Made by a program: the position numbers and the translations under genes. 64,000 nucleotides of DNA, taken from Candidatus Dadabacteria bacterium (lineage in GTDB: Bacteria; Desulfobacterota_D; UBA1144; Nemesobacterales; CSP1-2). The notes beneath the pieces are model-generated. The model did no database searches, was not told where the DNA came from, and worked only from the letters and a program-made list of their open reading frames with translations. Positions 8,615 to 27,194 of this stretch are shown in pieces. The stretch is taken from positions 160,001 through 224,000 of the forward strand of contig CAWDVW010000006.1 of NCBI GenBank assembly GCA_963805855.1, written 5' to 3'. Position 1 is the stretch's first letter; every line of letters begins with the position of its first letter.

Positions 8615-9631
8615 GGGGTCAAATCTTTTGTTTATAAGTTTTGTTTATAATATCTTCGACCTTTTTTCTAAACCTTTTGTCCTTCTCCATTTTTACCCGT
8701 ACCCAGTTACAAGCCCATCCTACCACCCCATAACTACTTACTCCAAACATCCCTGCTACCTCATTTAGCGTTATATCACATAACTGCTTTACTAAATGCA
8801 TCCCTACCTTCCTCGCTTCACTATCACTTCCCTTTCTCCACCGAAGCACCTCATCAACTCTTGTCCCATATGCCGTAGCCACATTACTAGCTACCTCATT
8901 CACCGACGGCCTCAACCATACTCTCTCATGCCGAGGATGCTCTCTTCCTATCTTGCCTATCTTCTCCCTTACCCTTTCCCTAAAATCCTCTCCTCCTAAT
9001 ATTGGACTCTGGCGACTACGAGTATAAAACTTTTTTAACTTATCCTCATTCCCCGATAAAACAAACTCCTGAAATTCTCTAACACTACGGAATTCCTCCA
9101 ATAACTCAGTTACATTAAGCCACTGCGGTGCCTTTTTTGGTTTCAAATAGTTCTTATGGCTGCTCCACTTGTATTCGTCAGGTTCTTTAGCCAGTCCAGC
9201 CTCAATAGGATTCAAATGTATGTATCGCACTACAGCCGTCAGATATCTATCACCGTCTATCACTATTGCCTTGAATCGACCCCGAAATATGGGACCGTCT
9301 CGTCCATGCATTCTGTTAAATCTCTGTGTGTATAGACCGTCAACATGGCGCATGACACGGGAAAGATTTGCCTCCGGGGTCCTTAGGCAGACGTGATAAT
9401 GGCTACTCATCAGACAGTATGCAAAGACCTCAATACCCCAACGTTCATGGGTCTCAGCGATAGTCTTCAGAAATTCCTCGAAGTCTTTTGTCTGTATAAA
9501 TATCTTCTGACGTGCGATCCCACGATTCATCACATGGTATATTGCACCCGGAAACTGAATCCGAAGCGGACGAGACATTATAGATAATTATAGGGGAATC
9601 AATTAGACTTCTAAACAAAAGATTTGACCCC
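8615..9631 (-). mobile_element. TIR-bounded Y1 tyrosine-transposase element (RAYT/TIRYT-like)
   Basis: Perfect 20-bp inverted repeats GGGGTCAAATCTTTTGTTTA at 8615-8634 and 9612-9631 enclose the transposase. Confidence 0.8.
8619..9578 (-). CDS. REP-associated-type HUH (Y1) tyrosine transposase with C-terminal HTH
   Basis: YHVMNRG, AYCLMSSHYH (HUH), RYIHLNP (catalytic Tyr), YKWSS. Confidence 0.92.
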   Translation of the reverse strand: MSRPLRIQFPGAIYHVMNRGIARQKIFIQTKDFEEFLKTIAETHERWGIEVFAYCLMSSHYHVCLRTPEANLSRVMRHVDGLYTQRFNRMHGRDGPIFRGRFKAIVIDGDRYLTAVVRYIHLNPIEAGLAKEPDEYKWSSHKNYLKPKKAPQWLNVTELLEEFRSVREFQEFVLSGNEDKLKKFYTRSRQSPILGGEDFRERVREKIGKIGREHPRHERVWLRPSVNEVASNVATAYGTRVDEVLRWRKGSDSEARKVGMHLVKQLCDITLNEVAGMFGVSSYGVVGWACNWVRVKMEKDKRFRKKVEDIINKTYKQKI

Positions 9632-11520: not shown

Positions 11521-11611
11521 TACCCCGAAAGTTTTTTAGCAAATACTGTGTGTCAAAGAAACTATTACGCCCCCTGGCAGGGGGGGGTAGGGTCAGCCGG
11601 TAGGGTATGGG
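11521..11611. repeat. G-rich ~90-bp island motif P, copy 1
   Basis: TACCCCGAAAGTTTTTTAGCAAATACTGTGTGTCAAAGAAACTATTACGCCCCCTGGCAGGGGGGGGTAGGGTCAGCCGGTAGGGTATGGG; near-identical to 19136-19225. Confidence 0.9.
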
Positions 11612-12242: not shown

Positions 12243-12308
12243 GTTTGTATTCTGAGAGCTAGAAGTATTAGTTACCACTATTATACACTAGGCTAATCTC
12301 CGTCTTTA

Positions 12309-12348
12309 TTCCAGTTTAAACCGAGCTTGACAAAAGGGGAGCGGTACA
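12309..12348 (+). repeat. island site R, copy C
   Basis: TTCCAGTTTAAACCGAGCTTGACAAAAGGGGAGCGGTACA. Confidence 0.9.
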
Positions 12349-12384
12349 AACTACCCTTTGTACCAATCCATATAGAGACTTTGC

Positions 12385-12418
12385 AACAACCACAATTCCA
12401 CCTGTCAGAGGGTGTGAG
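12385..12418. repeat. 34-bp island motif Q, copy 1
   Basis: AACAACCACAATTCCACCTGTCAGAGGGTGTGAG; 31/34 identical to 19291-19324. Confidence 0.85.
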
Positions 12419-12511
12419 ATTCAGTAGCAATCTGTCTATTCCGTAAAGACAATAAAGAATGTCTGCCGGCATTCCACCCGGCTGTTGTGCGACGTTCTCT
12501 ACAGGTAGGAT

Positions 12512-12615
12512 GAGGCAGACTGTTTTCTCATATTAACTCTTCCTCTGTTTTTTTTAATTCAACGGTAAGTGAGCCTATTATTTGGGTTAGCTCTTGATTC
12601 TTTTTACGAAGGCGA
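12512..12615 (-). repeat. 104-bp inverted copy of the IS3 orfA/orfB junction (16089-16192)
   Basis: Direct base-by-base reverse-complement match. Confidence 0.92.
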
Positions 12616-12715
12616 ATGGCGGATAAGGGAAGTGGTGCGATGTGCGATGATCTGGAGGGAAAAAGAAGGAGGCTGGATCATCAGATAAGCAGGCTTTTTA
12701 GGGCTGAGGGCAAAG

Positions 12716-13584
12716 TGCCTGCCAAATCACGACCCCTTCGTGCTTGCTCACAGGATAGCGGTTCTCGACCATCTGGCTAAAGGGAGATTCTATTGGGGTG
12801 TCGGGTCCGGTACCTTTATAGGTGACTTTGAGGCATTCGGGATTGACCCAAAAACAGGAGAGCAAAGGGAATTAACCAGTGACTCACTGGATTTTATCCT
12901 TAATTTGTGGAAAAACCCGAAGCCCGGTTTTTATGGAAACAACAGATGGAAATTTCGGGTACCAGAACCGCAAAATGACGTAGGTCTTGGCGTAGATATA
13001 AGTCCGTATCAGAGACCGCATCCCCCAATAGCCGTGGCGGGGATAACCGAAAGGTCTGAGACGCTGAGAATCGCCGGAGAACAGGGGATGGATACCCATG
13101 AGCATTAATTTCATACCAAAAAATGTGTTGATGACGCATTGGTCATCGGTCGAAGAAGGAGCCCGAATGTCAGGAAAAAACCCGGATCGCTCGAAATGGC
13201 GGATTGCAAGGGATGTCTATGTCGCCGAGACTACCGAGGACGCCCGTCGGGAGGTAAAGCAGGGAACACTGTCTAGGGATTTTACAGACTACTTTTTCAA
13301 ACTAGTCCCAAGGATTAGGGGCAATTTAAAACACCTTTAAAGTCGATAAATCTATGCCCGATTCGGATGTGACTGCTGACTACATGATCGATAATCTTTG
13401 GTTAGTCGGAAACCCTGATGATGTTGTCGACCAAATTAAAGAAGTTTATCACCATGTTGGCGGCTTTGGGGTGCTGCTTGTGATGGGACATGAATGGAAA
13501 CCCAAAGACAACTGGGTCAGATGCATGAAGCTATTGGTTGAAGAGGTACTGCCGCGCTTGAAAAATTTAGGGAATAACGCTTAA
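12716..13584 (+). pseudogene. LLM-class flavin-dependent monooxygenase, 5'-truncated, two frameshifts (~13085, ~13330)
   Basis: CLPNHDPFVLAHRIAVLDHLAKGRFYWGVG, PYQRPHPPIAVA, LVGNPDDV, EEVLPRL. Confidence 0.85.
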
Positions 13585-13681
13585 GGTAGGCTTCGTCGCC
13601 TCCATACTAATCCTCCCAGATCAATGGTGAGCTTCCCTTACGGTGGCAGACGGTACGACGCTCGGATTCCACCTGCATCGA

Positions 13682-14444
13682 TTAATCCGCATGCCTAATC
13701 ATGAACCCCTCCATCAGCGTCTGCAGCATGACGGGTGTCTCCTCCATCGGGTAGTGGCCCGATTCGATCTAGCAAACTCTATGTTGTCATGCCATTTCGT
13801 AAAAGTTGCGCGCTGCGCCTCGATCCGCTCGTTGGGGAGGTCGTATTTTCCGCAGATTACCAGAAATGGCAGAGTGACACAGCCCGCTTCAGGTGAAAAA
13901 TCGTGTAGTGTAAACATATCTAGGTAGCCTCGCGCCGCTGCAGCGGTTCGGGTCTGGCGCGCGCGGCGCATCTTAAACTTCTTCCACTGTGTCGAAAGTC
14001 GGTTACCCATGGCAAAGTCAGGAGTTCATGGAATTTCTCATCATCGGTGATGGAGTCGATGGCTTTCTGCCGCAACTCTTCGGGCATTTGAAGCCGGCTG
14101 CCGAGACCGCAGCGATAGCAACCACACTCTTGAGCGCTCTGGCACGTCGATTGCCAACCGCTCGACGACCATGCCGGTCATTGAGAAGCCAACCAAATGA
14201 ACACGATTCCAACTAAGGTGATCGATCAGCTCGAGCGTATCAGCGGCAGCCTCGGTTTCGTTGTACTCACCCGTGAGGTGGATGGAACGGCCGTACCCGC
14301 GTACGTCGGTCAGCACATAGGTGAATCGATCTACATCGAGATACTGCATAACCGGCTCCCAACTCGTGCAGTCACCCATCCAATCGTTGTAGACAACAAC
14401 CTTCTCGGTCCATGCCCGAGCAATCTGTGTCCCAAGAGTGCCAA
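13682..14444 (-). pseudogene. alpha/beta hydrolase with several frameshifts
   Basis: DVRGYGRS, LVGFSMTG, PFLVICGKYD and HYPMEETP lie in different frames; GC-rich. Confidence 0.8.
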
Positions 14445-14979
14445 TGGTCACGACTCCCGTCACAATGCTGCAACGCTGAACTATAACGCCACCCGCGGAT
14501 GCCCAGCATCAAATCGCGGGCCCAACATCAATCTCAAATATTTATTCTACTCGTTCCAAATTTAAAACGCACATTACACTGCGCGTCAAAGTGATTGACA
14601 ATTTTTGTTACCAAAGATACCAATGATAACTAAGCGATTAATTCATTCTCCCAATGAACTAGGAGAATGGAACCTGATTACCAAAATGTGTCGTTACAGG
14701 TCTAGGAAATTCTTCTTTTGCGGATCAAAAATTAAGATTCGGTCTATTTTGTACAGGGTTAAATTAAGTTTTTATATGATCTATACACTCAGAACCAAGA
14801 TGGCCTTCTCACAGTTCGTCTTCTCGTGGTGCTGCGCGTCCCCCCCTAGACCAAAAACGCCCAATATCCCAAGACTGATTTCCCTCGCCATTGTTCGACC
14901 GATTTGTCTGGTGACACTGCTGTTCATGATGGTTTCAAGAGTTCCTTTATCAGCTGATGACCTTGATCTTCCAACCTTC

Positions 14980-15264
14980 ATTTTCCATATCGCCACGAAG
15001 TTGAAAAAATACTTAATAATCATTTGGTAAAAAAGACAAGTTTTTCCAATGAATTGTATCTCTGCGAAAAGTGTTACAGACTTTATGCGAGATTCTACGT
15101 AAGGATAGATTACGATGAAGATAAGACTTATACGACAGTGTACGTATGTAGCAAGTGTGAAGAGTTACTTAAAAGTATAAGGGAAGAAGAGATACCCTTA
15201 ATACCCTGTGCTAAATGTGGGGAAGAAAGCTCTAGAATACCGCCTGAGTTTGCTATGGGATTAA
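14980..15264 (+). pseudogene. Zn-ribbon protein, 5'-truncated, frameshift in G-run ~15219
   Basis: CEKC, CSKC, CAKC; corrected end CAKCGKKALEYRLSLLWD*. Confidence 0.55.
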
Positions 15265-15385
15265 ACTCCGATTTATGGAACGTATGGTACCAGCCTGTTG
15301 TTTGTCCTGCGTCAACTTTTATTAAGGTTACTTAGAAATGAACAGGGTAAGTCTAATTGATTTTTGAGAGTGGAGAGGTGTTAAT

Positions 15386-15763
15386 GTGAGCAAAACTGAA
15401 ACGCCAATGATTAGAAGGTACTGGGAGATGGTTGGTGGTACATTGATTGAAGAATTTCCTGTTGTTAAGGGAACAAGGTACCAAGGAGCGAGGAGAATAG
15501 ATGCGATAATAATTAAAAATGGTGAGAGGAGAATAGCAAAATCAAATGAAGTTTCTTTAAAAGGTAAGGATATTATTTGTGTTCAAGCTAAAAGTCATAG
15601 ACTTGGTATGTATTTAATGGGACAGACGTTTTTCTCTGAGCAGCTATTAAGGAGATTTGAGCCGAGTAGTGTCTCATGCGTTGCTTTATGTGCCAAAGAC
15701 GATGCAGTCCTAAGACCATTAATAGAACAGTATCCACAGATGAAAGTTGTTGTAATTGATTAG
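15386..15763 (+). CDS. small PD-(D/E)XK restriction-endonuclease-fold protein
   Basis: E...RRIDAII...VQAK...MGQ motif; GGAGAGG RBS. Confidence 0.6.
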   Translation: MSKTETPMIRRYWEMVGGTLIEEFPVVKGTRYQGARRIDAIIIKNGERRIAKSNEVSLKGKDIICVQAKSHRLGMYLMGQTFFSEQLLRRFEPSSVSCVALCAKDDAVLRPLIEQYPQMKVVVID

Positions 15764-15900
15764 AGTTGAAATCTCAGAATATCATAACGAGGATGAGTTA
15801 TTAGCTATGTTAGCACCATGGCTACGATATACTGCTCCCCATTAAGGAGTGAGTGTGATTAAGTGAGAAAATATCTGTAATAGACAATGGGGGAGCAACC

Positions 15901-16176
15901 ATGAAACGAAGAAGATGGGATTCTAAAGCCAAGACAAAAATAGTACTTGAAGGTCTGTCCGGTAGACCAGTATCAGACATTTGCAACGACTTCGGAATAC
16001 ATCAGAACCAATACTACACCTGGCGGGACAAGTTTTTATCAGAAGCCCACAGAGCCTTTGAATCCAAAAAAGACGGTGCACAAGTAAATCGCCTTCGTAA
16101 AAAGAATCAAGAGCTAACCCAAATAATAGGCTCACTTACCGTTGAATTAAAAAAAACAGAGGAAGAGTTAATATGA
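15901..16176 (+). CDS. IS3-family transposase OrfA (HTH_Tnp_1)
   Basis: KTKIVLEGLSGRPVSDICNDFGIHQNQYYTWRDKF. Confidence 0.9.
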   Translation: MKRRRWDSKAKTKIVLEGLSGRPVSDICNDFGIHQNQYYTWRDKFLSEAHRAFESKKDGAQVNRLRKKNQELTQIIGSLTVELKKTEEELI

Positions 16177-16943
16177 GAAAACAGTCTGCCTCTGTATCCT
16201 TTAGTAACGAATACTTACTTACACGAATAAAGGATATAAAAGCGGAACATCCTTTCTGAGGTTATAGAAGAGTATGGGCATATCTAAGATATATAGATGG
16301 ACTAGTAGTTAACAAGAAGCGTGTATACAGGCTTATGAGAGAGAATAACCTTACCGTTAAGCCTAACACAAGACTAATAGCAAAGAGGATATCAGGAAGA
16401 CCAAAGCCAAGACCTGATAGACCCAGACAGTGGTGGGGAGTAGACATGACAAAGGTCATGACTGACAGTGGCCGGGTATATGTAGTAATAGTACTGGACT
16501 GGTATACGAAGAAGATAGTAGGTTACTACAGTGGAACAAGAGCCACAACCATAGAATGGCTGGAAGCTTTAGAGAAAGGACTAAACCGAGAGTTCCCCGG
16601 AGGGGTGAGAGGACATGAATTAAAGCTCATGAGCGATAATGGGAGTCAGCCTACTTCACTTAGTTTTATGAAAGCATGTTCCAATCTGGAAGTAGAGCAA
16701 GCATTTACCAGTTACAATAACCCGAAGGGTAATGCGGATACGGAGAGAATGATAAGAACGATGAAAGAGGAGCTATTTTGGCTAAGAGAGTGGAAGAGTG
16801 AAAGAGAGCTTAGTCATGAGCTGGATAAATGGATTAAGTATTACAACACAAGCTACCTTCATTCAGCACTTGGATACCGAACACCGATTCAGTTAGAAGA
16901 GGAATATTACAGGAATATCACTTCACATGAAAATGCTGCTTGA
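16173..16943 (+). pseudogene. IS3-family transposase OrfB (rve) with premature TGA at 16257-16259
   Basis: HPF*GYRRVWAYL (Trp codon replaced by stop); WGVDMT, SDNGSQP, NADTER. Confidence 0.88.
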
Positions 16944-17055
16944 GTAATTTACTTCATAGTAATTACAACTTTTCCTTAGAGCCTTGGCTATAGTATAATA
17001 AGGGTGTAATAGATTTCATTTTAAGCCCTGTATTTAGATAGTCAGGGGTAATTAT

Positions 17056-17541
17056 ATGGCTCAACCAACTGACATAGCTCAGAATCATATTGTAAAAGAC
17101 CTGATGCTTTATCCTGTTTCCCCCTCAATACTTTATTATGTTGAACTGCCGGGAACCAAGTGCAAGATTATCCAAAACAATGGTAACAAACTCTACTGCG
17201 CAAAATATCCTATGCTTAAAGGACTGTTCAGAAAGGACATGGATGAAACTAAGAAATACGGAAAAATAATCTGCTATAAAGTGGCAGAGAAACTGGACAA
17301 CTTCGGCTTTTTCACCTCCGATGAGCGCCCTGAATATGGAATATCGTACGGTATATCCGAAAAAGAATTCGCGTATATGTTTGAGCTAATCGGGGCTAAA
17401 GAAGGCGAGCACTTAGTTGCAATGTTCGCATATCCGGAAAGAGAGGCACTTGAGTCAAAAATCTTTTTTGAAAAACTGCTTAGAAAGACTTACTTCTCCT
17501 ATATTCTAGATAAAAAAATTTTCAATATGTTTTTTGGTTAA
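17056..17541 (+). CDS. hypothetical protein resembling the GAD/insertion domain of archaeal GatE
   Basis: CAKYPMLKGLF...KKYGKII...GFFTSDERPEYGISYGISEKE...IGAKEGEHLVAMFA resembles the recalled GatE motif GIFHxDELPxYGISxEE. Confidence 0.5.
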   Translation: MAQPTDIAQNHIVKDLMLYPVSPSILYYVELPGTKCKIIQNNGNKLYCAKYPMLKGLFRKDMDETKKYGKIICYKVAEKLDNFGFFTSDERPEYGISYGISEKEFAYMFELIGAKEGEHLVAMFAYPEREALESKIFFEKLLRKTYFSYILDKKIFNMFFG

Positions 17542-17637
17542 GTAAACTCTGTTTTCATCCCCGTAGGGCTCCCTCGGCTCTTGCTCATAAAGCAGCTAAT
17601 AGTTACAAGGTTAGGTTGGGAATGAACGAATACTATA

Positions 17638-17677
17638 ATCCAACTTAGACCGAGCTTGACAAAAGGGGTGCGGTACA
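17638..17677 (+). repeat. island site R, copy D
   Basis: ATCCAACTTAGACCGAGCTTGACAAAAGGGGTGCGGTACA. Confidence 0.9.
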
Positions 17678-17889
17678 ACGACCATTTAGACTTAATACAT
17701 TATATGACGATTGGGAAAACGCACCATCTTACTCGGGATGACCAATATGGATAACAAAATCGTGCTTGAATGGAGAGGTGCCTTCGACTGGTTTGGCTCA
17801 TCCGAGAACGTCACGGCCAGCCCTGACACTATGAACCCCGCTGCTGGGAACCTCTCTCTGTATACACGGAGTTCCTTAAGGGAATGAGC

Positions 17890-17937
17890 TCGACACAGTG
17901 GAAGAAGTTTAAGATGCGCCGCGCGCGCCAGACCCGA
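17890..17937. repeat. 48-bp inverted copy of 13948-13995
   Basis: TCGACACAGTGGAAGAAGTTTAAGATGCGCCGCGCGCGCCAGACCCGA is an exact reverse complement. Confidence 0.92.
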
Positions 17938-17999
17938 GAACCTATGCTGAGAGTAACCTCGCTTCTCTATCCTGTCTTCTTATTGTTATTGGTTCAGGC

Positions 18000-18238
18000 G
18001 GTTTTTCCACAAATTAAGGATAAAATCCAGTGAGTCACTGGTTAATTCCCTTTGCTCTCCTGTTTTTGGGTCAATCCCGAATGCCTCAAAGTCACCTATA
18101 AAGGTACCGGACCGACACCCCAATAGAATCTCCCTTTAGCCAGATGGTCGAGAACCGCTATCCTGTGGGCAAGCCCGAAGGGGTCGTGATTTGGCAGGCA
18201 CTTTGCCCTCAGCCCTAAAAAGCCTGCTTATCTGATGA
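18000..18238. repeat. ~239-bp inverted copy of 12678-12917
   Basis: Reverse-complement match with 2 substitutions and one 1-bp indel. Confidence 0.92.
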
Positions 18239-18648
18239 GTGGTTTAATTCCAAATGGATGGCGGGTGTCTTTCCTCAGCAGGCATGGTCCGTCGCGGGTG
18301 ATGATAATCGCCCGGAAACAAGCCAGGCCAAGACCCAGGGGCACAAGCTCGCACAAGCCATCATCCCCCCCGTAGAGAAAGCCTTGACCCTGAAGTTCTG
18401 GGCTGCCCTCTTCTCCCTCAGGATTACATCAGCCACAAGCATCTCTCCCGATAGTATGTATACGTCCAGCGCACCCCTCATCGGGCACACGCCCAGATGG
18501 AAAACACAGGCTATGTTAATACTTCACCTCGACGAAGGAGTAACAATAACACCAAACTTTGCGCTATAAGACCTATAATCGGGAATTATAGGCATGCTCG
18601 CAGTCTAATTAATAGTTAGGCACAGAAAAGCGCAGGAACTGTCATCCA

Positions 18649-18975
18649 TTGGTAACAAGCTCTGCATACTTTACCACGAACGACGGGGTGAGGCTGCATT
18701 ACCTCGAAGCAGGTCACGGGAGACCACTCGTGCTGCTGCCGGGGTGGACACAGCCGGCCGAGACGTATATCTCGCGGTTCAAATCAGACCCTTACTCCAT
18801 TCTTATTGCTGAAATGCTCTTGAGGAAAACTACAGCCTTACAGGTTGAAAGAATATTTCGCTTTACTTCGGGAAAGGGTGACGCTAAAAAATTAGCCAGG
18901 GAAGGAATAAAACAGGGGTTTACCCATTTTGTTTCTGTCGGGGGGGACGGTACTGCACATGAAGTGGTGAATTGA
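18649..18975 (+). pseudogene. in-frame chimera of alpha/beta hydrolase, HhH-GPD glycosylase (MutY/MIG-like) and diacylglycerol-kinase fragments
   Basis: DGVRLHYLEAGHGRPLVLLPGW | DPYSILIAEMLLRKTTALQV | FTSGKGDAKKLAREG...VSVGGDGTAHEVVN. Confidence 0.8.
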
Positions 18976-19058
18976 AGGCGACAAAGCCAAACTTGATGAC
19001 CTGGTTTCAACGCTCGAGCCAAGCATTGGGTAGGAATCGGAAAACGAAATACTGGATA

Positions 19059-19099
19059 TTGGCCTGGCTTGTTTCCGGGCGATTATCATCACCCGCGAC
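19059..19099. repeat. 41-bp inverted copy of 18291-18331
   Basis: TTGGCCTGGCTTGTTTCCGGGCGATTATCATCACCCGCGAC is an exact reverse complement. Confidence 0.92.
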
Positions 19100-19135
19100 C
19101 GTAGAGGCGGCTTCTAAGTGAATTGATGCATAACC

Positions 19136-19225
19136 TACCCCGAAATTTTTAGCAAATACTGAGTGTCAAAGAAGCTATTACGCACCCTGCCAGGGGGGGG
19201 GTAGGGTCAGCCCGTAGGGTATGGG
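19136..19225. repeat. G-rich island motif P, copy 2
   Basis: Direct repeat of 11521-11611 with a handful of differences. Confidence 0.9.
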
Positions 19226-19290
19226 TACGTAGGCCAGAGCTTTCATTTTCTTCTCTATAACCCCACAGACAAAAGAAAGCAATAAGGTAT

Positions 19291-19324
19291 AACAACCATG
19301 ATTTCACCTGTCAGAGGGTGTGAG
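19291..19324. repeat. island motif Q, copy 2
   Basis: AACAACCATGATTTCACCTGTCAGAGGGTGTGAG. Confidence 0.85.
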
Positions 19325-19471
19325 GTGTAGAAACCCACTGTTAGCGGGCATACGCTTTTATGACCAAGAGCCTAGGGAGCCGTGTGACTCCCTCCGCCTT
19401 GGGTTATACGTTTCTCGCTGGTGCAGGTGGGTGCATGCTGGTTTGGGCTACCACTCAGACGACCTGGATTA

Positions 19472-19990
19472 TCACGGCGTGAGCGTAGGTGAAGGCTCGC
19501 AACTGTATGATGCTTGTGCAGGGTCGATTTGGACGATGTTCTTCTGAGCCAGTTCGGTTGTGTACTGCGCTAGTCGGCATAGACACGTCTCAAATTGGGC
19601 TTCAGAAGTGCCGTTTGATTCGGGTTGGACGTCGCAGAACGGTGGTGCATTCCCGAGCGTGAAGGCTACGGAGCACCCTAGGCTGCTGCCATCGCGTATC
19701 GCGGTATTGGCGAACCTGTTCCCGTCGCCCACTGGCTGGGATAATGCACAACCATCAGATGGTAGCGAGTCGCATTGGGATGATGTGCAGTTGTCGAAGT
19801 CGATATTCTCGCAACTGCAAAATACGCCTCCCCAGCAATCTGTGGTCATGGGTACCTTGAAGTAGTCGCATGGGCACTCTGCTACTGCAGCGAGCTCGGC
19901 ACATGGGTCGCCGCCACCGCCATCACCATCACATCCAATGCCTACAGCTAGCAGAAATAGTAACGCTAAGAATATCTTATGAGGCTTCAT
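19472..19990 (-). CDS. Cys-rich lipoprotein
   Basis: Lipobox AVGIGC, Gly-rich linker, many Cys; G-rich RBS. Confidence 0.75.
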   Translation of the reverse strand: MKPHKIFLALLFLLAVGIGCDGDGGGGDPCAELAAVAECPCDYFKVPMTTDCWGGVFCSCENIDFDNCTSSQCDSLPSDGCALSQPVGDGNRFANTAIRDGSSLGCSVAFTLGNAPPFCDVQPESNGTSEAQFETCLCRLAQYTTELAQKNIVQIDPAQASYSCEPSPTLTP

Positions 19991-20086
19991 AATATCCCCC
20001 CCCCTTACGATTTTATTTGAGTAATACGCCTGACAGCACTTGGCAACTTTATCATATGTTTGATGCGAAATGCAAGGATATTATGA

Positions 20087-20120
20087 TTCCAACTTAAACC
20101 GCCGTTGACAAAAGGGGAGC
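20087..20120 (+). repeat. island site R, copy E (3'-truncated, fused to integrase remnant)
   Basis: TTCCAACTTAAACCGCCGTTGACAAAAGGGGAGC. Confidence 0.8.
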
Positions 20121-20127
20121 AGGATAG

Positions 20128-20418
20128 GCAATAAAAGAAGCCGGTGTTAAATGCACCTTCCACAGTTTAAGACATACATTCGCAAGCAACCTGGTTACAC
20201 GCTTGAAAGAGGATATGGTAACGGTAATGGAGTTAACCGGACATAAAGATATTAGGATGCTAAAACGATATAGCCATACAAAAAAAGAGCTAAAAAAAGA
20301 GGCTATGTCAACATTGGGGAATCATCTAAAATCCCTCGATTTGGATACATCCATAGACACCTCCTCGGACACCTCTACAGGTGACAAGATTTTCACCAAA
20401 TTATCTGTTATATCTTAA
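20128..20418 (+). pseudogene. C-terminal fragment of phage-type tyrosine integrase
   Basis: AIKEAGVKCTFHSLRHTFASNLV...LTGHKDIRMLKRYSH contains HxxRH, GH and the catalytic Y; N-terminal region absent. Confidence 0.9.
20342..20375 (+). repeat. three tandem 12-bp-period repeats, likely integrase arm-type sites
   Basis: TGGATACATC-CA-TAGACACCTC-CT-CGGACACCTC, 70 bp from the tRNA 3' end. Confidence 0.55.
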
Positions 20419-20444: not shown

Positions 20445-20522
20445 TGGCGTCCCCGAGGGGATTTGAACCCCTGTTACCGCCTTGAAAGGGCGATGTCCTA
20501 GGCCAGGCTAGACGACGGGGAC
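20445..20522 (-). tRNA. tRNA-Glu(TTC)
   Basis: GTCCCCG...CT-TTC-AA...GGTTCAAATCCCCTCGGGGACGCCA cloverleaf with encoded CCA. Confidence 0.97.
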
Positions 20523-20527
20523 GGGAG

Positions 20528-20601
20528 TGAGCCGTGCAGGATTCGAACCTGCGACCCACTGCTTAAAAGGCAGTTGCTCTACCTAGCTGAGCTAACGGCT
20601 C
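20528..20601 (-). tRNA. tRNA-Lys(TTT)
   Basis: GAGCCGTTAGCTCAG...ACTGC-CTTTTAA-GCAGT...GGTTCGAATCCTGCACGGCTCA; CCA not encoded. Confidence 0.97.
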
Positions 20602-22804: not shown

Positions 22805-22848
22805 GTCCTGACGAAAACCAGGATCTATTCAGTATCAAGACAAAGAAG
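22805..22848. repeat. intergenic repeat; inverted copy at ~27023-27065, partial copy at ~4790
   Basis: GTCCTGACGAAAA(C/T)CAGGATCTATTCAGTATCAAGACAAAGAA. Confidence 0.75.
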
Positions 22849-24986: not shown

Positions 24987-25215
24987 GGATTTTTTTTGTT
25001 TTTTTCAATAGAAAATGGATTCTAACTATATGTTCACTAAAGTCAGGTGAGATATGATTTATTTGAAAACCGGCTGTAAAATTTAATTGTTAGGTATTTG
25101 TCGATCTTGGGATACTGGTGAAACTCCCTGAAAGAAGCTTCAGGGTATCATAATAGAGACTGATGGTTGCAGATGTCTGCGAGGAGCCCTGAACTTAGGC
25201 GAAGTATTCGGCATG

Positions 25216-25358
25216 AGAACTTTTTCCTGTCATCTCGAATACTTCGCTGAACTCAGCATAAACTCCTGTGAGAGATCTGGTAGTTAACTCAGTCAAAACA
25301 AAGAGAAAGGAAAGATTTCTCTCTTCGTTCGAAATGACAGATGGTATTCGAAATGACA
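25216..25358. repeat. REP/REPIN-like palindromic element (GTCATCTCGAA...TTCGAAATGAC family)
   Basis: Inverted arms; second copy at 27069-27194, degenerate copy at ~4660-4735. Confidence 0.75.
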
Positions 25359-27000: not shown

Positions 27001-27068
27001 CATACGTTTCATTTTCTTTTTTTTCTTTGTCTTGATACTGAATAGATCCTGATTTTCGTCAGGACATC

Positions 27069-27194
27069 AGAACTTTTTCCTGTCATCTCGAACGCATGTG
27101 AGAGATCTAGTAGTTAAGTCGGTAAAAGCAAAAGACAAAGGAAAGATTTCTCATGGAACGTGTACTGAGCTTAGCCGAAGTATTCGAAATGACA
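27069..27194. repeat. REP/REPIN-like palindromic element, copy 2
   Basis: Aligns with 25216-25339. Confidence 0.75.

What the first reader, a model, noticed from the sequence alone, without database searches (positions are those of the whole stretch)
17678..19135. 1.45-kb patchwork of roughly ten 40-240-bp fragments of unrelated genes between site R and motif P
Seen in order: a gene start (MDNKIVLEWRGAFDWFG), a 48-bp piece of the hydrolase at 13948, a 239-bp piece of the LLM region at 12678, further unidentified pieces, a hydrolase N-terminus, a HhH-GPD glycosylase piece, a DAG-kinase piece, a piece reading IEGDKAKLDDLVSTLE (resembles an alkyl-sulfatase C-terminus) and a 41-bp copy of 18291. 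Pieces abut with no repeats between them. Decay of a single operon does not produce this pattern. Inference: repeated capture of short DNA pieces by template switching or microhomology end-joining at one locus, a kind of repeat-less DNA scrapbook. The 43 kb of housekeeping DNA in this window shows no such joins, which argues against a genome-wide amplification artefact.
Basis: partly seen in the sequence, partly recalled or inferred. Interest (0 to 1): 0.8.

Follow-up and report, generated by a model that had tools for sequence, protein, structure and literature searches.

The report
Gene-fragment junkyard in decaying island
A 1.4-kb stretch of a sediment bacterium's genome is a real mosaic of dead gene pieces, some left behind by deletions and some copied backwards from DNA a few kilobases away, which makes it an unusually dense natural record of sloppy DNA rearrangement and not a new genetic system.

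Summary
Window 17679-19135 consists of about 12 abutting segments. Eight of them are shown here to be fragments of six unrelated genes. Three known-donor copies are confirmed: 48 nt of hydrolase-1, 239 nt of a luciferase-like monooxygenase (LLM), and a 48-nt internal inverted repeat.

It is not a single-library artefact. Contigs of two public runs from two coded studies match with 0 differences and bridge 3 of about 12 junctions.

The "scrapbook by repeated capture" reading is only partly supported.
- Four short copies (48, 104, 240, 48 nt) are all inverted and lie within 5.3 kb of their sources. They are 4 of only 8 such local inverted pairs in the 3.1-Mb genome. This points to local strand-switch copying, not capture from anywhere.
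- The "41-bp copy" is really two overlapping, opposed pieces of one outer-membrane-type gene flanking an inverted segment. A sister strain shows the opposite orientation, with its breakpoint at the outer edge of the repeat.
- At least one piece (hydrolase-2) is an in-situ truncation of a gene that runs on longer in the sister strain.

The surrounding tRNA-linked island is full of frameshifted and truncated genes. My verdict is real but ordinary in kind: a strain-variable junk region shaped by illegitimate rearrangements. Earlier first-reader notes of this scan described the same island in a similar way.

The parts
17637..17678 (+). 'Site R': the right end of a dispersed MITE/PATE-like repeat. 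It forms the left boundary of the strain-variable stretch.
   Evidence: 17 copies in the genome, each followed by different DNA. Present in many relatives of the order. A sister-strain contig diverges at 17675.
17679..17889 (+). 211-nt piece of unknown origin holding an ATG ORF (17747-).
   Evidence: No donor in the genome. No Pfam family. No homologue.
17890..17937 (-). Inverted 48-nt copy of an internal segment of the island's hydrolase-1 pseudogene (13948-13995).
   Evidence: 100% identity. The donor is in natural context on both sides by comparison with full-length homologues P0001 and others. Both junctions are bridged by the X1 contig 17815-18029 with 0 differences.
17938..17999 (.). 62-nt filler of unknown origin.
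   Evidence: No match in the genome. Unrelated to the other 62-nt spacer at 12616-12677.
18000..18238 (-). Inverted copy of the island's LLM (luciferase-like monooxygenase) pseudogene, 12678-12917, with an extra 1-nt deletion.
   Evidence: 98.75% identity over 240 columns. Bac_luciferase Pfam match. 89% identical to the native LLM on contig C5.
18240..18338 (+). Gene X fragment A (about residues 181-213 of the G045 frame; the called ORF is 290 aa), from a signal-peptide, outer-membrane-type protein conserved in relatives.
   Evidence: tblastx 61-73% to three relatives. blastx 73% to G045 gene X. No intact copy in this genome.
18339..18557 (.). 219-nt piece of unknown origin.
   Evidence: No family or homologue in either long frame. 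The X1 contig 18369-18519 matches with 0 differences.
18558..18761 (+). Hydrolase-2: a 5' leader with a dispersed hairpin repeat (18558-18622) plus the first 37 codons, truncated at 18761.
   Evidence: 95% identity to L013 230-438, where the gene runs on and carries Abhydrolase_1. Sister-strain contigs carry it inverted and longer. The repeat occurs in relatives. The junction 18761|18762 is bridged in X1 and X6.
18762..18856 (+). HhH-GPD DNA glycosylase fragment, about 30 codons.
   Evidence: BLASTP 53% over 57 residues to the L023 protein, which carries Pfam HhH-GPD. 80-82% DNA identity over 18786-18856.
18857..18972 (+). Diacylglycerol/lipid kinase catalytic-domain fragment. Its left edge is uncertain by about 10 nt.
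   Evidence: Pfam DAGK_cat, E 1.4e-6, 28.3 bits against a 23.6-bit cut-off. Only 62% identical to the genome's own kinase on C2.
18971..19018 (+). Unverified.
   Evidence: No Pfam hit at E<=10. No blastx alignment to the G045 alkyl sulfatase. A breakpoint at about 19016 is shown by loose ends in run X3.
19019..19102 (-). Gene X fragment B (about residues 197-224 of the same frame). It overlaps fragment A by the 48-nt inverted repeat 19052-19099.
   Evidence: tblastx 65-79%. blastx 79%. Run X3 contigs continue into an intact gene X (loose ends, my translation).
19103..19225 (+). Right flank shared with the sister strain from 19100 on. It includes 'motif P' (19136-19225), whose second copy is at 11521-11611.
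12512..12615 (-). A fourth short inverted copy, outside the finding: 104 nt of the IS3 orfA region 16089-16192.
   Evidence: 100% identity. The donor is contiguous with the IS3 copy on C5.
12678..13995 (+). Donor region: the 5'-truncated, frameshifted LLM (12678-13584) and the hydrolase-1 pseudogene (13717-14508, minus strand).
   Evidence: Pfam matches spread over three frames each. Comparison with the native LLM. Homologues P0001-P0012.

Best explanation
The stretch is non-functional DNA: a strain-variable junk segment inside a decaying, horizontally acquired island beside tRNA-Glu and tRNA-Lys. Two ordinary processes, acting repeatedly under relaxed selection, built it.

(1) Deletions cut acquired genes down to stubs. 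Hydrolase-2 is the shown case. I infer the same for the glycosylase and kinase pieces.

(2) Short stretches of 48-240 nt were copied in reverse orientation from DNA 0.7-5.3 kb away and pasted in. The most likely cause is the replication machinery switching to the opposite strand nearby (fork-stalling/template-switch or 'U-turn' type). One of these events is linked to an inversion of about 0.7 kb that split gene X.

Shown: the fragments, the inverted copies, their clustering, their presence in independent reads, and the different sister-strain arrangement. Inferred: the strand-switch mechanism itself and the order of events.
For: - Inverted copies of 48, 104, 240 and 48 nt.
- They are 4 of the 8 local inverted near-identical pairs (<=300 nt, >=95%, <=10 kb apart) in the 3.1-Mb genome, all within 6.6 kb. 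That call found 24 such local pairs in all.
- All four are inverted, and all known donors lie within 5.3 kb.
- The 48-nt donor is natural on both sides, so the copy is a true insertion. The same holds for the IS3 piece.
- The two gene X fragments overlap and point in opposite directions. Flipping 18339-19051 restores the gene's order.
- Sister-strain contigs in runs X3 and X4 hold hydrolase-2 in the opposite orientation and rejoin our sequence exactly at 19100, the outer edge of the repeat. There the hydrolase gene continues beyond 18761.
- The island's other genes are truncated or frameshifted: FAD_binding_3 positions 1-137 of 349, LLM from profile position 77 in three frames, Abhydrolase_1 in three frames, and an integrase C-terminal stub.
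- Copy identities differ (100, 100, 98.75, 96%), so there were several events over time.
- Independent reads: X1 and X6 contigs with 0 differences bridge 17889|90, 17937|38 and 18761|62.
Against: - Only 3 of about 12 junctions are bridged by the contigs listed. 67 records were not shown.
- The 199 letters between hydrolase-2 and 19100 in the sister strain do not align at >=90% to our 18339-18557. The sister is therefore not simply our locus un-inverted.
- Four segments (211, 62, 219 and 33 nt) have no identifiable source, so 'deletion remnant' is assumed for them, not shown.
- No operon with hydrolase-2, glycosylase and kinase side by side was found near 16 hydrolase-2 homologues in other genomes.
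- Junction microhomology, the usual signature of template switching, cannot be assessed.
- DNA folds around four boundary stretches (17630-17730, 17860-17960, 18545-18630, 19130-19230) are no more stable than shuffles, z from -1.45 to +1.17.
- The LLM copy and its donor end at the same nucleotide with different flanks, which no simple model predicts.
Confidence: 0.6

Rival explanations
1. Active, locus-specific capture. Short single-stranded or double-stranded DNA pieces from inside and outside the genome are inserted again and again at this spot. This could happen by SPDIR-type annealing at the fork or by end-joining at a recurrent break. The ssDNA might come from the genome's many HUH (Y1) transposon relatives.
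For: - Pieces come from at least six unrelated genes, and most have no donor in the genome.
- Two pieces are true insertions.
- SPDIR is described as integrating intra- or extragenomic ssDNA and giving patches of 3 to about 100 bp (introduction of bioRxiv 10.1101/2023.11.22.568220, read). ssDNA-producing replicons raise its rate (abstract of 10.1101/2024.07.02.601687).
- The genome has 10 Y1_Tnp matches, one of them in the island at 8622-9587.
- The stretch differs between close strains exactly from the end of R to 19100.
Against: - All known donors are local (<=5.3 kb) and all copies are inverted. Random ssDNA capture predicts neither.
- Hydrolase-2 is an in-situ truncation, not a captured piece.
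- A fourth copy lies 5 kb away at 12512, so the process is not confined to one site.
- R is a transposon end with 17 copies, not a capture site.
- No Ku and no Cas1. The only reverse transcriptase is on another contig.
- The copies are 96-100% identical to their partners, and the foreign pieces look old.
Confidence: 0.12
2. Pure deletional decay. An inverted segmental duplication of the island (covering at least 12678-13995), and an array of acquired genes, were whittled down by many deletions. No short-patch copying took place.
For: - The 48-nt and 240-nt copies are colinear with one inverted copy of 12678-13995.
- Hydrolase-2 is truncated relative to the sister strain.
- The related contig L013 also carries an internally deleted hydrolase-2.
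- Truncated genes are found throughout the island.
Against: - The model needs the 1030 nt between the two copies to be replaced by 62 unrelated nt.
- It does not place the IS3 copy, which lies on the other side of the donors.
- It does not explain the overlapping, opposed gene X fragments.
- The remnants are uniformly small (48-240 nt).
Confidence: 0.2
3. Assembly or amplification artefact: an MDA chimera, or mis-joins between strains in a metagenome assembly.
For: - MDA chimeras are mostly inverted joins between nearby segments (recalled, not from a call), and the copies here have that shape.
- The genome is a metagenome-assembled one with 9 contigs.
- Strain variants exist at this locus.
- 9 of about 12 junctions are not bridged by the contigs listed.
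Against: - Contigs from two runs of two coded studies (X1 2024, X6 2020) match with 0 differences inside the patchwork.
- They bridge 17889|90, 17937|38 (X1) and 18761|62 (X1 and X6).
- The rest of the genome has almost no such joins.
- Copy identities below 100%, and a frameshift in one copy, indicate age.
Confidence: 0.05

Closest known systems
Replication template switching giving short-range inverted junctions: FoSTeS/MMBIR-type events and the 'U-turn-like inversions' of organelle genomes (Zampini et al. 2015, PMC4417113; abstract read)
   Same: Short-range, inverted, replication-type rearrangements that copy nearby sequence in the opposite orientation and arise repeatedly in one region.
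   Different: Those are detected as rare junction reads and mostly use microhomologies. Here the products are fixed in a genome, are 48-240 nt long, sit 0.7-5.3 kb from the source, and their microhomology cannot be assessed. FoSTeS/MMBIR details are recalled, not read.
[quoted passage not shown] 2011, seen only as cited passages in PMC8963470 and PMC4671568)
   Same: For the gene X pair, a short segment is present as inverted copies at both ends of a segment whose orientation differs from a sister strain. One copy keeps its natural outer neighbour and the other its natural inner neighbour.
   Different: The 48-nt hydrolase-1 copy and the 104-nt IS3 copy have novel junctions on both sides while their donors are intact on both sides. 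They are therefore not DDAI. The inverted segment here is only about 0.7 kb. The original paper was not read.
[quoted passage not shown] 2016, as described in the introduction of bioRxiv 10.1101/2023.11.22.568220)
   Same: Short ectopic DNA of intragenomic or foreign origin is integrated without homology, producing clustered sequence novelty.
   Different: SPDIR patches are given as 3 to about 100 bp, need microhomologies, and are not reported there to favour nearby donors or the inverted orientation. Here every known donor is local and inverted, and one piece is 240 nt.
Pseudogene debris in tRNA-linked genomic islands and IS-rich regions (general knowledge, recalled)
   Same: Truncated integrase, IS3, transposon ends, and frameshifted and truncated cargo genes beside tRNA genes.
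   Different: Density is unusual: about 12 segments of 33-239 nt abut in 1.46 kb, including four short inverted copies.
Gene-fragment capture by rolling-circle elements (Helitrons, ISCR/IS91; recalled, not tested)
   Same: Arrays of unrelated gene fragments next to a transposon end.
   Different: No IS91/Helitron-type Rep gene was seen. The island's HUH protein is of the Y1 IS200 type. R ends 17 different elements with unrelated flanks.

Membership tests
MDA / assembly chimera | Junctions present only in the one amplified library or assembly. | tested here: not met
   X1 and X6 contigs (two coded studies) bridge 3 junctions with 0 differences. The other junctions are not covered by the listed contigs.
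CRISPR-like or integron-like acquisition array | Regular repeats (CRISPR repeats or attC sites) between the acquired units. | tested here: not met
   No direct repeat family separates the pieces. R occurs once at the edge, and its fold is not better than shuffles, z -0.46.
CRISPR-like or integron-like acquisition array | An acquisition enzyme (Cas1, or an intact IntI-type integrase) at the locus. | tested here: not met
   No Cas1 in the genome, which is 93.8% complete. The only integrase is a C-terminal stub matching positions 119-170 of 172 of Phage_integrase.
SPDIR | A short ectopic patch of intra- or extragenomic origin integrated without homology. | tested here: met
   The 48-nt and 104-nt internal gene segments are inserted with two novel junctions each. 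The 240-nt piece exceeds the size range of about 100 bp stated in the text read.
SPDIR | Microhomology (or extended microhomology) at both crossover joints. | not testable with these tools
   No junction has both source sequences known. The bases beside a repeat edge mismatch by construction.
SPDIR | Donors drawn from anywhere in the genome, on either strand. | tested here: not met
   All 4 copies are inverted and all known donors lie <=5.3 kb away in a 3.1-Mb genome.
DDAI (duplication associated with inversion) | Inverted copies flank a segment whose orientation differs from relatives. | tested here: met
   Gene X pair only. The sister contigs carry 18558-18761 on the opposite strand and rejoin at 19100, the outer edge of the repeat. 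The intervening 199 letters do not align.
DDAI (duplication associated with inversion) | Each copy keeps exactly one natural neighbour: outer for the original, inner for the new copy. | tested here: inconclusive
   Met for gene X. Not met for the hydrolase-1 copy (donor natural on both sides) or the IS3 copy. Ambiguous for the LLM copy.
Replication template switching (FoSTeS / U-turn type) | Templated copies from nearby sequence, often inverted, several per locus. | tested here: met
   4 of the genome's 8 local inverted pairs lie within 6.6 kb. Distances are 0.7-5.3 kb.
Replication template switching (FoSTeS / U-turn type) | Microhomology at switch points; dependence on replication stress. | not testable with these tools
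   Source sequences are unknown at the adjoining sides, and the organism is uncultured.
Ku/LigD non-homologous end joining with filler DNA | A Ku gene in the genome. | tested here: not met
   PF02735 gave no match in the 93.8%-complete genome, while the control rang in Bacillus subtilis.

The most novel reading that the evidence does not exclude
This spot is an active natural hotspot. Single-stranded DNA shed by the genome's hairpin transposon relatives, or by stalled forks, is copied or annealed into the chromosome again and again. The result is a repeat-less, growing record of local and foreign DNA snippets: a wild, serial form of SPDIR or template-switch insertion that differs between closely related strains.
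Probability: 0.1. Interest if true: 0.7.

Novelty: new member of a known kind. Interest (0 to 1): 0.35.

Why it matters
Short templated insertions and strand-switch inversions are mostly known in bacteria from selection experiments or as rare junction reads. This locus shows several of them fixed side by side in a wild, uncultured bacterium, with a sister strain for comparison. It is therefore a useful natural example of how acquired islands are shredded. It is also a caution that dense mosaics in metagenome genomes need not be assembly errors. It does not reveal a new genetic system.

Tried and rejected
Searches that found nothing:
- A continuous known sequence. There was no match to 17600-19300 in plasmids or phages. 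In 61 related genomes only single pieces matched. A metagenome scan with the 119-aa chimeric ORF found relatives of single pieces only.
- Sources for the unknown pieces. Pfam, two word-index protein searches with longer targets and a full phmmer search (which hit only the window's own ORF) all came back empty.

Ideas tested and dropped:
- An ancestral operon of hydrolase-2, glycosylase and kinase. It was not seen beside 16 hydrolase-2 homologues.
- The sulfatase piece and gene X coming from one native cluster. In relative G045 an alkyl sulfatase lies about 3 kb upstream of gene X, but the 16-residue piece does not align to it.
- Junction microhomology. This is uninformative by construction.
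- Hairpins at boundaries. Folds were not better than shuffles.
- The two 62-nt fillers being related. They are not.
- An insertion between R and repeat D4 (19291-19341, second copy 12385-12435). The 'skip' joint 17678>19291 is just the other locus, 12304-12435.
- An RT-, Cas1- or Ku-based mechanism.

Coverage limits:
- Parts of the stretch have no cover in the laid runs (17728-17814, 18877-19016 in X1 and X6). That proves nothing either way.
- No run held half or more of the sampled words.
Full report
**Setting.** The window is G000:C6:160001-224000 of a 3.1-Mb, 9-contig genome. An earlier follow-up note of this scan calls the organism an uncultured sediment bacterium. The finding lies in a roughly 12-kb stretch of higher G+C that ends at tRNA-Glu and tRNA-Lys (20445-20601).

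That stretch carries the following:
- an integrase C-terminal stub (20128-20415);
- an IS3 element (15859-16940);
- an intact Y1 (IS200-type) transposase fused to a DnaA-type HTH (8622-9587);
- an N-terminal stub of a FAD monooxygenase;
- a luciferase-like monooxygenase (LLM) that starts at profile position 77 and is spread over three frames;
- an alpha/beta hydrolase ('hydrolase-1') also spread over three frames.

It is a decaying, horizontally acquired island.

- 17890-17937 is the exact reverse complement of 13948-13995.
- 18000-18238 is the reverse complement of 12678-12917 at 98.75%. A 1-nt deletion frameshifts the copy.
- 18291-18338 is the reverse complement of 19052-19099 (48 nt at 96%, 41 exact).
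- Pfam confirms the kinase piece (DAGK_cat, E 1.4e-6, above cut-off) and the LLM piece, the latter just under its cut-off.
- The glycosylase piece aligns at 53% over 57 residues to a metagenome protein that carries HhH-GPD, HHH and the EndoIII iron-sulfur motif. At DNA level it is 80-82% identical over 18786-18856.
- The 'hydrolase N-terminus' (18558-18761, 'hydrolase-2') is 95% identical to metagenome contig L013. There the gene continues and carries Abhydrolase_1.
- The 'gene start' (17679-17889) and the 16-residue 'sulfatase' piece could not be verified.
- Three further segments (62, 219 and 33 nt) have no source anywhere I searched.

In all there are about 12 abutting segments. Eight of them are shown to be fragments of six unrelated genes, with no repeats between them.

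1. The '41-bp copy' is not a stray piece. 18240-18338 (+) and 19019-19102 (-) are two overlapping fragments of one gene ('gene X'). This is a 290-aa ORF with a signal-peptide-like, hydrophobic N-terminus (my reading of the translation, not a prediction tool). It is conserved in relatives (61-79% by tblastx; 73% and 79% by blastx). This genome has no intact copy. The fragments share the 48-nt inverted repeat. Flipping 18339-19051 would restore the gene's order.
2. A fourth short inverted copy lies outside the finding: 12512-12615 is the exact reverse complement of 16089-16192 in IS3 orfA.
3. 'Site R' is the right end of a dispersed repeat element. It has 17 copies in the genome, each followed by different DNA, and one copy cuts the integrase. 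It also occurs in many genomes of the order. R is therefore a flank, not a capture site.
4. 18558-18622, the leader of hydrolase-2, is itself a dispersed hairpin repeat in relatives.

**Is it more than chance, and is it local?** A genome-wide self-comparison found 24 near-identical pairs that are <=300 nt long, >=95% identical and <=10 kb apart. Only 8 of these are inverted. Four of the 8 lie in window 12512-19099. Three others sit next to another Y1 transposase and look like REP-type repeats. All four copies here are inverted, and every known donor lies within 5.3 kb.

**Is it an artefact?**
- The run search found 20 public runs holding 10-32% of the sampled words. None held half.
- I laid four runs from four coded studies.
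- X1 (2024) and X6 (2020) hold what looks like the same strain at about 2-3x. Their contigs match with 0-1 differences at 17815-18029, 18369-18519, 18569-18719, 18664-18838, 18726-18876, 19125-19275 and 19301-19451.
- 17999|18000 has only 30 letters on one side. The other junctions are not covered by the listed contigs, and 67 records were not shown.
- One of these runs could be related to the source sample, but the two belong to different coded studies. A one-library chimera is therefore excluded for those junctions and unlikely for the rest.

**The sister strain.**
- In X3 and X4 a contig matches 17000-17675 (4 differences) and then runs on with unlike sequence right after R.
- Another contig (1632 nt in X3, 1036 nt in X4) carries the reverse complement of 18558-18761, then 199 unaligned letters, then 19100-19700 (97% identity).
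- On the far side of 18761 the hydrolase-2 gene continues. Its loose end matches the L013 continuation.

So close strains differ exactly between the end of R and 19100. In the sister, hydrolase-2 is longer and points the other way. The right breakpoint coincides with the outer edge of the 48-nt repeat. Caveats: both contigs show the same depth figure (9.38) in two runs, and the 199 letters do not align to our 18339-18557.

**Copy-paste or remnant?**
- Full-length homologues of hydrolase-1 (12 proteins, the best 94% identical; four read) show that the 48-nt donor segment is in natural context on both sides. The copy at 17890 is therefore a true insertion with two novel junctions.
- The same holds for the IS3 piece, whose donor is contiguous with the C5 IS3 copy.
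- Hydrolase-2, by contrast, is an in-situ truncation.
- The gene X pair fits 'duplication associated with inversion': one natural neighbour per copy, and orientation differing from the sister.
- The LLM copy is ambiguous. It and its donor both stop at the same nucleotide, about codon 77 of the native 367-aa LLM on C5, with unrelated DNA beyond. I cannot explain this.

**Mechanism.** I commit to a mixed origin, with confidence about 0.6. The first component is deletional decay of acquired genes. The second is several local strand-switch copying events during replication, which give inverted templated insertions. One of those events is linked to a roughly 0.7-kb inversion.
- For this reading: orientation (4 of 4 inverted), proximity, clustering, different ages (96-100% identity) and the sister-strain arrangement.
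- Against or open: microhomology cannot be scored, folds at four boundary stretches are unremarkable, and four segments lack a source.
- Enzyme-based alternatives find no support: no Ku, no Cas1, and the only reverse transcriptase is on another contig.
- Capture of random ssDNA (SPDIR) would explain the foreign pieces. It does not explain why all known donors are local and inverted.
- The genome's 10 Y1 transposase matches are a possible ssDNA source. That is speculation.

**Comparison with known things.** The closest matches are:
- replication template switching and 'U-turn-like' short-range inversions (PMC4417113, abstract);
- DDAI (known to me only through citing passages);
- SPDIR (introduction and abstracts).

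My literature searches turned up no description of a fixed multi-piece mosaic like this one in a bacterial genome. These were six keyword searches of open-access text, so that is weak evidence of absence.

**Verdict.** The mosaic is real, unusually dense and not an artefact. It is junk DNA made by known kinds of illegitimate rearrangement, not a new capture system. Interest 0.35. The earlier first-reader notes e1-1536432 and e1-1536431 describe the same island in similar terms.

Noticed in passing
window 12512-12615 and 16089-16192: An exact 104-nt inverted copy of part of IS3 orfA sits 62 nt upstream of the truncated LLM. It is the same kind of event as in the finding but lies outside its coordinates.
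   Followed up: partly
window 12678 and 18238: The island LLM and its inverted 240-nt copy end at the same nucleotide, about codon 77 of the native LLM at C5 528233, with unrelated DNA beyond each. This shared end is unexplained.
   Followed up: partly
window 17637-17678, 20086-20127 and 15 other places in the genome: The 42-nt motif R has 17 copies, each followed by different DNA. The copy at 20127 replaces the N-terminal two thirds of the island integrase. R-like copies at 84-95% identity occur in many genomes of the same order.
   Followed up: partly
window 18558-18622: The leader of hydrolase-2 is a roughly 65-nt repeat with an 8-bp hairpin (18572-18592). It recurs at 77-81% identity in six relatives, and homology starts at this same point in three different contexts: the window, L013 and the X3/X4 contigs.
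   Followed up: partly
L013 (metagenome contig), 326-870 and 1199-1567: The near-identical hydrolase-2 on this unrelated contig also has an internal deletion: the N-terminal 135 codons, then the C-terminal part in another frame. It lies beside a truncated methylpurine DNA glycosylase.
   Followed up: no
G000 C2 340775-342251, compared with L085 (G045:C24): In relative G045 the gene order is DUF1254/DUF1214, alkyl sulfatase, sulfatase, FGE, gene X. In this genome the DUF1254 homologue (61%) is followed about 150 nt later by an R copy, and neither an alkyl sulfatase nor an intact gene X was found. This may be where the native gene X cluster was lost.
   Followed up: partly
window junctions 17937, 18761, 12615 (also 18238, 12677): Three junctions end in CGA| and five in GA|. 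This is a post hoc pattern, not tested against a proper null.
   Followed up: no
window 22805-22847 / 27023-27065 and 25212-25302 / 27065-27132: A 43-nt inverted pair (98%) and two short direct repeats lie in the housekeeping part of the window. This is the only other local inverted pair on this contig.
   Followed up: no
window 18616-18972: The hydrolase-2, glycosylase and kinase fragments are fused in one stop-free frame of 119 codons, with a TTG start at 18649. Chance alone gives this about 1 time in 9, so I read nothing into it.
   Followed up: no
window 8622-9587 (minus strand): An intact 322-aa ORF combines a Y1 (IS200-type) transposase domain with a DnaA C-terminal-type HTH. It is one of 10 Y1_Tnp matches in the genome.
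   Followed up: no
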